From NCBI GenBank assembly GCA_036170915.1, contig JAVHQC010000035.1, positions 96,001 to 160,000 of the forward strand: a stretch of DNA of 64,000 nucleotides. The letters run 5' to 3'. Shown in pieces: positions 18,001 through 27,000 of this stretch. A program made the position numbers. Positions within the stretch are counted from its first letter, which is position 1. Each line of letters starts with the position of its first letter. Source of the stretch: Cyanobacteria bacterium auto_48_18 (GTDB lineage Bacteria; Cyanobacteriota; Vampirovibrionia; Obscuribacterales; Obscuribacteraceae).

Positions 18001-21000
18001 ACAAAAAGCTGGTGGATAAACGAGAGAAAGCGTCCACCGTGAACCAGTCGGTGAGCGCTAAGCGACACGAACGTGGAGTACTAATGGCGCGGGAGCGCAT
18101 CGATCAGCTTGTAGATCCGGGCACTTTTCTGGAAATTGATCGATATGCCGTGCACAAATGCCTTGATTTCGGCATGGAAAATAAAGTAGCAGCCGGCGAC
18201 GGAGTAATCACCGGCCAGGCTCATATTGACGGTCGCCCAGTTTATTTGTTCGCTCACGATGCCACGTTTGTTGGTGGTGCTCTAGGCGAAGTTTTTGCTC
18301 GCAAAGTTTGCAAGATTATGGACCTGGCTAAACAAGCAGGTTGTCCGGTGATCGGGCTGAACGAGAGCGGTGGTGCGCGCATTCAAGAAGGCGTGCGTTC
18401 ACTAGCAGGTTATGCCGATATTTTTTATCGCAACGTCAGCTGCTCGGGAGTGATACCACAAATATCAGTAATCTACGGGGCCTGCGCCGGCGGTGCCGTT
18501 TACAGCCCGGCGGTGACCGACTTTACAATCATGGTTAAAGACAAGAGCTGGATGTTTGTCACTGGCCCTGAAATTGTGCGCACCGTCACTGGTGAAGACG
18601 TTTCTCTTGAAGAACTGGGTGGTGCCATGACCCACAACTCGAGATCTGGCGTAGCGCAGCTCTTGGCTGAAGATGAAGAAGACTCATTCTGGTTGACAAA
18701 AAAACTGCTCTCTTACTTGCCCGGCAACAATCTTGACGCACCACCGCAAGAACCATTTGACCTGGCCAACGATCATCTACAACCAGCTGACATGGCTGAA
18801 CTGAACAGCATCGTGCCAGTTGAAGCGGCAAAACCGTACGACATGTACGGAGTAATCAAACGTATCTTTGATAACGGTGATTTCTTTGAAATTTCACCAC
18901 ACTTTGCCACCAACATTATTACGGGATTCGCCAGATTGGGTGGCAGATCTGTAGGCATTATCGCCAACCAACCTAAATCGCTAGCTGGTTGTCTAGACAT
19001 CAACGCTTCTGTGAAAGCCGCTCGATTTGTGCGTTTTCTTGACGCCTTCAATATTCCGATTCTGACCTTCGTTGACGTGCCCGGTTATCTGCCAGGCACA
19101 TCGCAAGAGTACGGCGGCATTATTAGACACGGTGCCAAGTTGCTCTATGCCTACTGCGAAGCTACTGTGCCTATGCTCACTGTCATTACACGCAAAGCCT
19201 ATGGTGGTGCATTTGATGTAATGGGTTCAAAAAATGTGGGTGCAGATTTCAACTTTGCCTGGCCTACAGCCGAAATCGCAGTGGTTGGTGCCGAAGCTGC
19301 CGTCAATTTGCTCTATCGCAAAGAACTGAGTGATGAAGCCAGTAAAGCTGCTGGAAAAGCTAGTGGTGCAGCTACTGAAGGTAGCCGTTTCACCGAACTG
19401 GTCAGCGAATTTAGAGAGCGTTTTGCTAATCCATATATTGCTGCTGAAGAAGGCTATATAGATGATGTGATTATGCCTGAAGAAACCAGAGCGAAATTAA
19501 TCGCCGCATTAACTGTGCAAGCCAATAAAAGAGTGGAACGCCCCCGGCGTAAACATGGCAACATTCCTCTTTAACTGCTGACTAATATTTATAGATGATT
19601 TGAGCTTTATTGGTGCTGCTGACGTCAGCTGGTCGCTTAGGCCGCCTCAGCTGAGGGTGCAGAAGAAATAGATGCCCACCCATCTCAATTGCCTCATTAT
19701 TTTCAAGACCATCTGCGTCGGCTTGATCATCTATTTTATGGTTGCCGTGCAGTTTTACTACTAAATTGATATGAGCGTTATAAGGTGCTGGCAATATGGA
19801 ATCAAATTTGGCCACCGGATCCGCCGCCCCAGTAACTTTTTCCACATGGGTTAGAACCGCCGGCGGAAAAGGCGAATCAAAAAAGACAAATACACCTCTT
19901 ACCTGATCGCCCTGCCGTGCTTGCATCTTGGCCATGCGTCCAAGAAAATCTTTGAATAAGTCAAGTTGAGCGTGAGCATTCTCATTTTCTGCGGTTTTAC
20001 TGAAAAGCGGCTCAACCACTAAAGCGCAGGCTAGTGTCTGGCCGGTGTTGGTTTTAAAGTTCAATTCGTAGACCGGCATTGCCACTTTTTGAAAAATGCC
20101 GCGCGCGAGCTGCTTTACGTCTACAACTGCAATTTTGGAAAGTGATTCCCACAGCTTTATTTGACGATTGTATAGCCCGCTTTGATGCGCCTGGGTAAAG
20201 TAATCGGTCAAAACAAACTTTGCCGCCGCCATTACCATGTCTGGCACTTTGGCGGAAGGCTCAAAGAGCAGATTGGCGCAAGCCGCTTCGAGATCTTGAG
20301 CTGTGGCGGTGCGAGGCGACTGAGTGACTGAACTAAGGTTAAAAGCCTCGGTGGTGTCATTTTTTATGACAATGGTTGAGCTATTTACAACAGACATTTG
20401 ATTTATCAGTCCTAACCACTGTAAAGAATGGGGAATTTGGTGCTATATCAGCCGGAAGTTTGGTAAGGCCGCTTAGCACCATTTAAACGTGGTACATCTA
20501 TGTTAGCGAGTTTAACCAGCGACATGCTATTACTCGAACTTGACGAGGGGGTGAATAAAAGTTCAAGAATATTCAGTAATTTAGCAAATCCATGTCCTTG
20601 GAGTACTCTCGGTAAAGCTTATATCAGGTAAACTGATAGTAGGCATCTTGGCGGTTGCAGCTTACTTTCAGAATTGGGGGAAGTAAGTGCGCAAGTGAGG
20701 GAAGTTAACCTCTATCTTATTGGCTAGTTTAATCCCCCCACAATGCGCACTATTTCACAGAGGCAGCCTTCAGGCTCCGATAGGTCCTGAGCACGCACGT
20801 CTATAGTTTCTGTGAGTTAACCATTTAAATAATGCCTCTGCTTCCATCGAAGAACAACACCAAAGAATTTGATCAATCCGCCGTGTCAGTGCTGACCGAC
20901 CTGAAAAAAGGCGGTAGTGACAAGCGTAATGAATTTATCTGGGTGCACCAGGAACGTATCTACGCTGTAGCCCTGCTGGGTACCGGCGACCATGAGCACG

Positions 21001-24000: not shown

Positions 24001-27000
24001 TGCACCGGTGATGAGTTCGGGTATTCCGGTCAATCAGATCGTAGAAAAAATGGGCGCGGTACTTGGTGGTGGGCAGGACAACCGTTGGGATGTACCTATT
24101 CAAGAACGGGCTAATAAAGATGCTGCACCAGAGCAAGCAGCTGAAGTTATGCCTGCAGCACCAGCTAATGCGGCACCATTTGGTGGCGCACCGGCACCTG
24201 CTGCACCATCAGCATGGGGCGATACTCCATCTCCATCTCCATCTCCAGCCCCGACAACCTGGGGCACACATCCGGAACAGCCTACTACAACTCCATGGGG
24301 GGCGGTGGAAAGCGCACCAGCAGCAGCTCCGGCAGGTGCTGCAGACGCGCCTGCAGCACCTGCCGCCTGGTCGGCACCAGCAGAAGTGGCACCTCAAACA
24401 CAACCAGCTGGATGGGGCAATGAAAAGCCACAAGTTCCTTCCTGGACAGCCGCCGCAGAAGCCGCTCCGGCTGCCGCGCCAGCATGGAACAGTGCTCCGG
24501 CAGCAGCAGCACCAGCTCCTTCTGGATGGGGTGTAGAACCACCTGCAGCAGCACCAACATTGCCAGCGCCTTCAGCCTGGGCAGCAGAACCACCAGCCGC
24601 ACCAGCAGCACCTGCAGGAGCAGAGGCGTGGGGTCAGCCACCAGCATGGGGTCAGGCTTCTCCAACTCCTGCTCCAGCAGCACCACCAGCACCAGAAGTA
24701 ACTGATCGCAACAATGCTGGTGGTATGTTCAATTTAGCCGACCGCGATATCGATAAGATTTTTGGCGACAATCTCGGCGTCAGCGAACCGGTTGGCAGAA
24801 CACTGGTAAATACTGGTGGAACGGATCCTTCATTAGCTGTGCCCGCGGCTGCAGTAAATAATTTTGCTCCACCGCAAGCTCCTGCAGCAGCGGTTCCACA
24901 AACACAGGCTCCAGCACCGATTGCACAAGTACAAGCTCCAGCAGCGGCACCACAAGCAACACCTGCCGCTCAAGAAAACAAAGGTCTGTTTTCACTAACA
25001 GATAATGATCTCGACAAATTGTTCAGCAATAATTTAGGAGTGGACGAACCCTCGACTCAAGTAGCGAACAATGCACCATCCATAAGTCCAGTGCAAGCCG
25101 CCAACAACTTTGCGCCACCAGCGCAAGCAGCCCCAGCAGGCTGGAGTGCACCAGCTGAAGCACCTGCAGCTCAACCGGCAGGTTGGGGTGTACCTGCACC
25201 TGCTCCTGTGGCCGGCGCCACTACATCTGGTGGCGGCTGGTCAGCCGCCCCACAAGCACCAAGCGGCTGGGGCATGGAAGCAGCTCAACCTGCAGCAGCA
25301 GCACCAAGCGGTTGGTCAGGCGCTACTCCTGCAGCACCTGCTGCCGAGGCACCAGGTGGTTGGGGCACACCCACACCACCAGCACCGCCAGCCTGGAATC
25401 AAGCTCCAGCTGCAGCGGCAGCACCAGCGCAAGAGCAAAAAGGTGGCTTGTTCTCAGTTGACGATAATGTGATGAACCGCATTTTCTCAGATAATCTAGG
25501 CATTCCAGAAGATGCAAATAGTTCTTCAGCTACAAATTCTTCTTTAGATTCGCAGACTGATATGGGCATGTCGGCTCCGCCTAAGATTGCTGGTATCGGC
25601 CGTCTTGACGCTTCTGCCGATCAGAACCAAGACGCTGGTTCAGGCAGAATTGCTTCCATCGGGAAATTCTTGCTCGATCAAAAAGACCTGGATAAAATCG
25701 GTAAACTAACAAGCTCCGACTTTAACGAAGGCAAAATGCGCATCCTCACTCTTGAGGCTTCGCAAGATTTGCAATCGTTGCTAAGCCAGATAGGCACTCA
25801 ACAGGGAGTCGTCGGCTCAGTAATTGTGGGTCATGACGGACTTCTGATTGCCAACACCATGCCTGGTGATATGGACGCTGAATCTGTTGGAGTATGGGCA
25901 CTGGGTGTTTATATGAACACTGAACACGTGACTAAAAAAATGGGTCACGATCGGGTGCACCAGGTTGTCTCGAGAACCCACCGCGGTTACGTGGTAATTG
26001 CCGACTTCGGCGGCGGTTTGCTCGTCACTGTAACTGACGGCAGAGACACTGATTCATTGATTCCGCTGATGCGTACCATCACACAGCTGGTTAATTGATT
26101 CGCAAAATTCAGTTGCTCAACCAGTCAATTTATGTGGCTTGTGAAAGCACATAATTGACCAGCGTGCGCGCACCAAAACCGGTGCCGCCTTTACAGAACT
26201 CGTCGCGCTCGCGATCGAGCCAGGCCATGCCGGCTATATCAAGGTGGGCCCAGGGTTTACCCTCAGTAAACTCCTTTAAGAACATGGCAGCACAACTAGA
26301 ACCTGCTTCGCCGCGCGAACCGGCATTTTTCAAATCAGCAATGTCACTCTTTAAGGCGTCTTTATATTCGACAAATAAAGGCAACTGCCAGTATTGCTCT
26401 GAGCTTGCGGCACCACTGGCGATGACAGAGTTCACCAGATTTTGGTCTGAGCCCATAATTCCGGCGGCTACACGGCCCAGGGCCGATACTACAGCACCAG
26501 TCAAAGTAGCGATATCGATAATCTCGTCAGCACCATTGCGCAGGGCATAAGTAATGGCATCAGCCAACACGAGCCGCCCTTCAGCGTCGGTATTATTCAC
26601 TTCAATGGTTTTACCATTCATCGATTTGAGCACGTCTCCCGGATGCAGCGCAGCTGAGCCCGGCATATTTTCAGTGGCGGGTATCACAGCTAACACCGAT
26701 ACCTCTGGTTTGACTTTAGCAATTACCTGCATGGCTGCAAGTACTGCTGCCGCTCCGGCCATGTCATATTTCATATGCTCCATGCCCACAGCGGTTTTCA
26801 ATGATAAGCCGCCAGAGTCAAAGGTAATGCCTTTCCCCACCAGACCAATAGTTTTTTTGCTTTTTGTTTTGGCAGCAGTGTACTTGAGAACGATTAAACG
26901 CAGAGGTTCTTTTGCTCCACGAGCTACACCAAGAAAAGCTCCCATACCAAGCTTTGTCACTTGTTCGGGATCAAGTATTTTAATAGTCAAACCATTGTCG

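What a model noticed while it worked through the whole genome (the two positions that open the first line are those of the whole stretch)
20832..26098. ECF-like sigma paired with an anti-sigma fused through a 600-1500 aa disordered linker to an MglB-type roadblock domain [...]
g03918 (sigma region 4, divergent region 2) is followed by g03919: an N-terminal zinc-anti-sigma-like domain, a very long Pro/Ala-rich linker and a C-terminal roadblock domain. With MglA (g02886, 62% to Myxococcus), a small MglB (g00104) and a second, membrane-anchored roadblock giant (g01828), this suggests that an Mgl polarity switch is wired to transcription.
Evidence so far: Sequences in call 22. The C-terminal domain is found in 24 of 25 order genomes, mostly in open frames of 750-1750 aa. 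In 7 of 7 family genomes fetched the sigma gene lies directly upstream and the N-terminal domain is 42-53% identical, with HxxxCxxC in 6 of 7. Roadblock family in 95% of the family against 11% of the class. Paper searches: nothing on this.
(Added by a program. Inside this text positions count along the whole contig: contig position 96,001 is position 1 of the stretch shown here. "Call 12" and the like, gene names such as g00115 and contig names such as C1 are that model's own, and its searches are not shown. The text may have been shortened before it was handed on; [...] marks where a part breaks off. The agent that wrote the report below was given it as the finding of a first reader that could run no searches.)

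Follow-up and report, generated by a model that had tools for sequence, protein, structure and literature searches.

The report
Sigma-tethering scaffold with MglA-binding repeats
A group of uncultured non-photosynthetic cyanobacterial relatives carries a giant floppy protein that joins an anti-sigma-like head to repeated copies of the short helix that controls the MglA cell-polarity GTPase, which may tie a transcription-factor-like protein to the cell's front-rear switch.

Summary
The gene pair is real and typical of the order Ca. Obscuribacterales. In 80 of 80 loci the sigma-like gene is followed within 9-89 nt by the anti-sigma-like giant. The sister family's '305 aa' frame is a contig-end artefact.

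One is an acidic helix, mostly in 2-3 copies, that matches the C-terminal helix of Myxococcus MglB, which binds MglA allosterically. A matrix built only from these copies scores that helix above all 1,489,068 other proteome windows. The second roadblock giant carries the same repeat. Canonical MglB was found in 0 of 41 order genomes, MglA in 33 of 33. A modelled MglA complex gave weak support only (0.48, best control 0.02).

Two corrections. The roadblock domain is not an MglB orthologue. The sigma has an ECF fold but has lost several core-binding and promoter-reading residues.

Best reading: a multivalent MglA scaffold that tethers a sigma-fold partner. Transcriptional control by MglA is possible (about 0.3) but not shown.

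The parts
20622..20635 (+). Conserved upstream DNA motif, consensus AATcAtGTAAACTG; reads as a TANNNT-type -10 element, no conserved -35 (inference)
   Evidence: 25 of 32 non-redundant loci; information content 16.9 against 9.9 in shuffles; no regulon in the genome scan
20832..21410 (+). ECF-fold protein, 192 aa, with degenerate regions 2.2, 2.4 and 4.2 and a highly conserved DGSxxMDWETT linker
21455..26098 (+). Giant scaffold, 1547 aa: anti-sigma-like head, disordered linker with ordered short motifs, roadblock tail
21455..21694 (+). ZAS (zinc anti-sigma)-like head; here only the His ligand is kept
   Evidence: profile hits RsiW, E 1.3e-6; alignment
22061..22147 (+). Conserved linker motifs M1 (SLGEKFG) and M2 (LTLAESI[RK]R)
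   Evidence: 52 of 67 and 64 of 67 orthologues
22166..23746 (+). Trp-spaced, low-charge, low-complexity tract (22 Trp in 527 aa); candidate self-association region (inference)
   Evidence: median 4.7% Trp, range 3.5-7.2%, in 45 orthologues
23747..24103 (+). Motifs M3 (WSxEAEQxETG), three copies of M4 (RWDxPIQ) and M5; partners unknown
   Evidence: 46, 50 and 43 of 67 orthologues by strict patterns
24719..24787 (+). MglB C-terminal-helix-like repeat 1
24980..25048 (+). MglB C-terminal-helix-like repeat 2
25442..25510 (+). MglB C-terminal-helix-like repeat 3 (less acidic)
25577..25750 (+). Conserved pre-roadblock extension (GRL...IGKFLLD plus one helix), shared with the second giant and the paralogues
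   Evidence: alignment; low confidence in the monomer model
25751..26095 (+). Roadblock/LC7 domain
   Evidence: Pfam E 9.5e-9; best fold matches are archaeal roadblocks and LAMTOR subunits, MglB at rank 17

Best explanation
The giant is a soluble, multivalent scaffold of the MglA polarity system of Obscuribacterales, a lineage that has MglA but no canonical MglB. (1) Its 2-3 acidic helices copy the MglB C-terminal helix and dock in MglA's allosteric pocket, binding MglA and probably promoting nucleotide exchange. The sequence match is shown; binding is inferred, with weak model support. (2) The roadblock domain and its extension dimerise or pair with the small roadblock and the membrane-anchored second giant, which carries the same repeats, placing the complex near the pilus machinery (inferred). 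(3) The Trp-spaced tract helps self-assembly into a polar hub (inferred from composition only). (4) The ZAS-like head holds the ECF-fold protein of the upstream gene (inferred from 80 of 80 adjacency and the SigW/RsiW likeness). (5) That partner, having lost several core- and promoter-contacting residues while fixing a new linker motif, acts mainly as a bound protein partner (adaptor or sigma mimic) and not as an ordinary promoter-reading sigma. Step 5 is the least certain.
For: Repeat: 185 copies in 67 giants, three in 53, two in 12, one in 2. The M. xanthus MglB tail printed from PDB has the same spacing, including D150, D152, D154 and F157, residues named as MglA contacts in PMC6785124 (passages). 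A matrix from the first giant alone scores that tail 18.0, reached by 0 of 1,489,068 other windows; the top other ORF is the second giant; the CheZ and FliM peptides score -2.0 and 1.6. The strict pattern occurs twice or more in 2 of 4047 ORFs, both giants. 43 of 120 MglB homologues end in the same core. MglA is in 33 of 33 order genomes with K181 and K185 kept; no roadblock gene was seen in 20 MglA loci or the own locus; canonical MglB in 0 of 41 order genomes against 3 of 3 control genomes of another class. Complex of residues 1327-1547 (two copies) with MglA, GTP and Mg: score 0.48, best control 0.02, runs agree in at least 58% of contacts, partner pLDDT at least 85, verdict weak support; the mark was reached by 116 of 157 solved and 2 of 215 mismatched pairs, but at 0.60 or under by only 18 solved and by both mismatches. 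In 2 of 2 genomes of another family of the class the second-giant homologue lies directly before pilB. Sigma decay: Gln of region 2.2 in 0 of 25 family rows against 4 of 4 own ECFs; across 113 rows the N80 position is D 50%, E 33%, N 4%, and the S172 position is Ala in 79%. G012 (98% complete) lacks both genes.
Against: An HMM of the repeat did not retrieve MglB from PDB at E <= 10. The MglB tail scores below 98% of the training copies. D151 is mostly not kept and D152 is Asp in only 23%. The basic pair in MglA helix 5 is also present where the coupled MglB has no tail, so it is not diagnostic. The complex pass is weak, may reflect the solved MglA-MglB structure, and gave no contacts. MglA occurs in two class genomes that lack the sigma-like gene. 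Against step 5: W73, R176, R178 and F/H175 equivalents are conserved at 99-100%, and Met at position 171 occurs in working SigH and SigR (PMC1540707, passages). No localisation, expression or binding data exist.
Confidence: 0.42

Rival explanations
1. Same scaffold, but the partner is a working, divergent ECF sigma. The scaffold holds it at the pole and releases it when MglA's nucleotide state, zinc loss or proteolysis changes the head, so the polarity switch controls transcription.
For: Complete two-domain ECF fold; strong conservation over 113 rows, including W87, R153, R180, R182 and K187; ZAS with HxxxCxxC in 40 of 58; ECFs that lack the acidic region 2.2 motif can be switched on by phosphorylation (PMC8999054, passages), and T61 next to that motif is 93% conserved.
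Against: Gln of region 2.2, the N80 wedge (PMC6648896, passages), T169, S172 and R173 equivalents are changed; PF04542 is listed for 0 of 119 homologues; the conserved upstream motif has no -35 partner and no regulon; 600-1500 disordered residues separate head and repeats, so direct allostery is hard to picture; six head-plus-roadblock paralogues have no sigma neighbour.
Confidence: 0.3
2. MglA is not the partner. The acidic helices bind receiver domains or the roadblock domains themselves, and the protein is a soluble anti-sigma scaffold whose roadblock only dimerises or senses.
For: 76 CheY-like ORFs in the genome; the repeat's LG tail resembles the CheZ tail in spacing; the roadblock is far from MglB and has Asp and Gly at the N37 and R98 GAP positions (positions from 10.1101/2023.03.05.531159, passages); mglA is not linked to the locus.
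Against: The MglB tail scores 18.0 against -2.0 and 1.6 for the CheZ and FliM peptides; the repeats occur in multiple copies only in roadblock proteins; weak model pass with MglA; no FliM or FliN match in the genome.
Confidence: 0.22
3. The two ends are joined without functional coupling, or the long frame is an artefact.
For: 4 of 62 fully covered loci are split over frames; linker length varies more than twofold.
Against: One frame in 58 loci and in the sister family; motif order M2 < M3 < repeats in 45 of 45.
Confidence: 0.06

Closest known systems
Myxococcus xanthus MglB (roadblock GAP with C-terminal allosteric helix; PDB 6IZW; PMC6785124)
   Same: Roadblock fold, and an acidic helix with the D-x-D-h-D-x-h-F spacing on a flexible tether; the MglA is closely related (E 8e-79).
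   Different: The helix comes in 2-3 copies N-terminal to the roadblock, inside a linker of about 1300 aa; the roadblock is 13% identical and in another clade; the gene is not next to mglA; it is fused to an anti-sigma-like head.
M. xanthus RomR (polar scaffold)
   Same: Folded head, long Pro-rich disordered region (recalled), C-terminal part binding roadblock proteins (PMC12719032, abstract) and an acidic helix able to use the same MglA pocket (PMC6785124, passage).
   Different: The head is ZAS-like, not a receiver; it carries its own roadblock; sequence likeness to RomR was not tested.
Bacillus subtilis SigW-RsiW and other ECF/ZAS pairs
   Same: Gene order sigma then anti-sigma; best fold and profile matches.
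   Different: No membrane segment or sensory domain; soluble giant tail; zinc ligands lost in 18 of 58; sigma contact residues altered.
PhyR sigma-like domain (sigma mimicry)
   Same: An ECF fold used as a protein partner of an anti-sigma (PMC8999054, passages); PhyR appears among weaker fold matches.
   Different: No receiver domain; the sigma-like protein stands alone and is encoded beside the anti-sigma.
Streptomyces conservons (roadblock plus MglA-like GTPase controlling gene expression)
   Same: Roadblock and small GTPase linked to transcriptional output (PMC8510531, search listing only).
   Different: No kinase-like or DUF742 gene at this locus; no anti-sigma fusion is known to me in conservons (recalled).

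Membership tests
ECF sigma factor | Two-domain sigma2/sigma4 fold, about 190 aa | tested here: met
ECF sigma factor | Region 2.2 acidic motif followed by Gln-Glu/Asp (core binding; role of Gln recalled) | tested here: not met
   Gln in 0 of 25 rows, 4 of 4 controls; Ile 81% of 113 rows
ECF sigma factor | -10 melting residues (sigmaE F64, W73, N80) | tested here: inconclusive
   W73 invariant; N80 position D/E in 83%; F64 position aliphatic or variable
ECF sigma factor | -35 reading residues (sigmaE T169, R171, S172, F175, R176) | tested here: inconclusive
   R176 99%, F/Y/H at 175; Met at 171 (tolerated in SigH and SigR); Ala at 172 in 79%; T169 in 15%
ECF sigma factor | Directs RNA polymerase to promoters | not testable with these tools
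   no ECF-type promoter or regulon found
ZAS anti-sigma | N-terminal anti-sigma domain encoded behind the sigma gene | tested here: met
   80 of 80 loci; RsiW hit
ZAS anti-sigma | HxxxCxxC zinc motif | tested here: not met
   not met in the window's copy (His only); met in 40 of 58 orthologues
ZAS anti-sigma | Binds and inhibits the cognate sigma | not tested
MglB | Roadblock/LC7 fold | tested here: met
MglB | Orthology to Myxococcus/Thermus MglB | tested here: not met
   hhalign probability 36%; MglB forms a separate clade, 100/100, on a long branch; MglB profile finds 0 of 41 order genomes
MglB | Gene coupled to mglA | tested here: not met
MglB | Acidic C-terminal helix for the MglA allosteric pocket | tested here: met
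   met as a motif, relocated and repeated
MglB | Binds MglA and speeds its GTPase cycle | tested here: inconclusive
   weak model support, 0.48 against best control 0.02; activity not testable

The most novel reading that the evidence does not exclude
A Ras-like polarity GTPase directly gates a sigma factor. Obscuribacterales have split MglB into parts and rebuilt it as giant multivalent hubs, one of which ends in an anti-sigma domain, so MglA's state or position at the pole decides whether a non-canonical ECF is released to transcribe.
Probability: 0.28. Interest if true: 0.9.

Novelty: new variant of a known kind. Interest (0 to 1): 0.68.

Why it matters
MglA regulation is known almost only from Myxococcus, Thermus and Bdellovibrio. 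Here a whole order keeps a very conserved MglA, has no canonical MglB, and carries the MglB allosteric helix as a repeated linear motif in two giant disordered roadblock proteins. That suggests the helix is a portable MglA-docking motif, and it gives a simple peptide test. The anti-sigma fusion is, in the searches made, an undescribed physical link between a bacterial small-GTPase polarity module and a sigma-fold protein. Either outcome is informative: spatial control of transcription by a Ras-like switch, or a sigma factor co-opted as a structural part.

Tried and rejected
Repeat HMM against PDB: four chance hits, no MglB; against NCBIfam: 0 of 32 members match. CheZ-type and FliM-type receiver-binding peptides as the model for the repeat: low scores; kept as a minor rival. 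MglA helix-5 lysines as proof of a helix supplied in trans: not specific. Autoregulated ECF promoter: only a single -10-like box, and only 5 of 23 genome hits above score 14 lie intergenic within 300 nt of a start; the sigma-70 consensus scan found 0 sites. RNA runs: none was listed. MglA in viral contigs: none confirmed. Earlier findings: none shown. Atlas: generic ECF clusters for the sigma, no usable hit for the divergent neighbour. The importance of MglB A64 and G68 is recalled; the terms were not found in two papers, so the bulky residues at those positions are not used as evidence. First copies of tandem roadblocks and sister-family small roadblocks were not picked up by the tree script and are missing; two sister-family second-giant loci gave no frame (17 of 19 scored). 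Paper searches without a description of this architecture: (0 papers). The library lacks most subscription journals, and bioRxiv supplements could not be seen. Sigma/anti-sigma binding was not modelled.
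Full report
Observation. The window has a 192-aa ORF at 20832-21410 and a 1547-aa ORF at 21455-26098 on the + strand. The first hits only Sigma70_r4_2 in Pfam. Its AF2 model matches ECF sigma factors, best SigW bound to RsiW. The second has a roadblock domain and an N-terminal domain whose family profile hits RsiW at E 1.3e-6. Record titles of relatives point to Ca. Obscuribacterales.

Spread. The C-terminal domain matches at E <= 2e-51 in 74 of 81 order genomes. The sigma-like gene is in 32 of 33 order genomes and 0 of 118 other class genomes; G012, 98% complete, lacks both. 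In 80 of 80 sigma loci from the species collection the anti-sigma-like head starts 9-89 nt downstream; 58 carry head and roadblock in one frame of 986-1845 aa, 18 are cut by the locus end and 4 are split. HxxxCxxC is present in 40 of the 58; the window's copy keeps only the His. Six head-plus-roadblock paralogues lack a sigma neighbour and group with the giants in the tree (96/97). Among the best 150 representatives hit by the C-terminal profile, 40 of those over 400 aa have the head, 32 a hydrophobic N-terminus, 32 neither (many look like fragments), and 46 are short.

The linker. It is Ala/Pro/Gly-rich but holds conserved motifs in fixed order: M1 in 52 of 67 giants, M2 in 64, a Trp-spaced low-charge tract (median 449 aa, 4.7% Trp), M3 in 46, repeated M4 in 50, M5 in 43, and a final repeat in 67 of 67. 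The final repeat, consensus GLFxLDDxxIDKIFxxNLG, has three copies in 53 giants, two in 12 and one in 2. The C-terminus of M. xanthus MglB as printed from PDB ends in ISDDDIDNLFSE. PMC6785124 (abstract, passages, sections 7 and 13, supplement S3) shows that residues 147-157 form a helix that binds a pocket at MglA helix 5 and the beta2-beta3 loop through D150-D152, D154 and F157 and promotes nucleotide exchange. A matrix built only from the first giant's copies scores this tail 18.0; none of 1,489,068 windows in the rest of the proteome reaches that, the best other ORF is the second roadblock giant, and the CheZ and FliM peptides score -2.0 and 1.6. The strict pattern occurs at least twice in only 2 of 4047 ORFs, the two giants; 14 of 17 second-giant orthologues have windows above 8. 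Against this: an HMM of the repeat did not find MglB in PDB, the MglB tail scores below 98% of the training copies, and the middle aspartates are only partly kept.

The MglA side. MglA is in 33 of 33 order genomes, 2 of 2 of one other family and 0 of 116 further class genomes, and it keeps K181 and K185. No roadblock gene was seen near it in 21 loci. In other classes of the phylum an mglB was printed beside mglA in 18 of 29 loci, and 43 of 120 such MglBs end in the same hydrophobic-acidic-Phe core. A profile of them finds 0 of 41 order genomes and 3 of 3 controls. The order therefore has MglA without canonical MglB and has the helix in the giants. The lysine pair is not diagnostic, since it is also kept where MglB has no tail. 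The giant's roadblock is not an MglB orthologue. In two genomes of another family the membrane-anchored homologue of the second giant sits directly before pilB; the window's genome has two pilus-type ATPases and no FliM or FliN match. A model of residues 1327-1547 (two copies) with MglA, GTP and Mg scored 0.48 against a best control of 0.02, with runs agreeing in at least 58% of contacts and partner pLDDT at least 85. The tool rates this weak support: 116 of 157 solved and 2 of 215 mismatched pairs reached the mark, but at 0.60 or under only 18 solved pairs and both mismatches. It may reflect the solved MglA-MglB complex, and it gave no contacts to tell helix from roadblock.

The sigma side. 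The fold is intact and strongly conserved, but in unusual places. Four ordinary ECFs of the same genome keep Gln-acidic in region 2.2, Asn at the sigmaE N80 position and a TV-basic motif in region 4.2; 0 of 25 family rows keep the Gln. Over 113 rows the N80 position is Asp or Glu in 83%, T169 is kept in 15%, 171 is Met in 86%, 172 Ala in 79% and 173 Trp in 56% (mapped through). N80 is the melting wedge (PMC6648896, passages); R171, S172, F175 and R176 read the -35 element (PMC1540707, passages). However W73, R176 and an aromatic or His at 175 are kept, Met at 171 occurs in working SigH and SigR, and ECFs without the acidic motif can be activated by phosphorylation (PMC8999054, passages). The sigma2-sigma4 linker motif DGSxxMDWETT is nearly invariant, which suggests a protein-binding surface (inference). 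A conserved box 210 nt upstream looks like a lone -10 element and defines no regulon. I put the odds at roughly 58:42 for adaptor or mimic against working sigma.

Mechanism. Most likely the giant is a RomR-like hub: repeats capture MglA, the roadblock and its extension join other roadblock proteins including the membrane-anchored giant, the Trp tract aids assembly, and the head holds the sigma-fold partner. Shown: architecture, conservation, motif identity, absence of canonical MglB, residue changes in the sigma. Inferred: all binding, localisation and activity. Confidence 0.42; the same scaffold with a working sigma 0.30; no MglA involvement 0.22; uncoupled fusion 0.06.

Known and new. The parts are known (ECF fold, ZAS, roadblock, MglB helix). 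The protein fails membership tests for MglB and, in this copy, for zinc binding, and the sigma fails one ECF test. Searches found no description of this architecture; PMC4316618 (passages) discusses orphan MglA and MglB and has no occurrence of 'sigma' or 'fused'. Abstracts only were seen for PMC12719032 and 10.1101/2024.10.31.621274; the latter questions the simple GAP/GEF labels, so 'exchange-promoting' should be read with care. The library lacks most subscription journals. Verdict: real, order-wide, a new variant of the Mgl polarity module with an unexplained sigma-fold appendage; interest 0.68.

Noticed in passing
G000 C20:82315-85542 (L072:5316-8543): Second giant: membrane-anchored, four MglB-helix-like repeats, roadblock tail; several orthologues have two roadblocks with further repeats between them; usually downstream of pheT.
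   Followed up: partly
L080, L081 (G087, G081): In another family of the class a membrane-anchored double-roadblock gene lies directly upstream of pilB; these genomes have MglA but no canonical MglB and no sigma-like gene.
   Followed up: partly
window 13536-15242 and 27819-29783: Two DUF4388 proteins with weak MshE-type c-di-GMP motif hits flank the locus; the downstream one is syntenic in most orthologous loci. Similar genes precede mglBA in other classes.
   Followed up: no
window 19582-20397: Divergently transcribed 271-aa gene of no known family, kept beside the sigma gene in 23 of 27 loci; no atlas hit.
   Followed up: partly
L167-L186: Many order genomes carry extra orphan MglA paralogues (60-76% identity), several between a histidine-kinase-like gene and a response-regulator-like gene.
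   Followed up: no
L032:9848-10609, L043:2702-3007, L051:3160-3993: Extra short copies of the C-terminal roadblock directly behind the giant in three genera.
   Followed up: no
L066:2978-3880; protein P0329: The same roadblock module fused to a double zinc ribbon, and in P0329 to what looks like a Clp N-terminal domain (read by eye).
   Followed up: no
window 42199-42834 (G000 C35:138199-138834): An ordinary ECF followed by an anti-sigma with four tandem zinc-motif repeats.
   Followed up: no
L188-L204: MglB of other classes of the phylum often ends in a clipped helix core, PKI[ND]DLF.
   Followed up: partly
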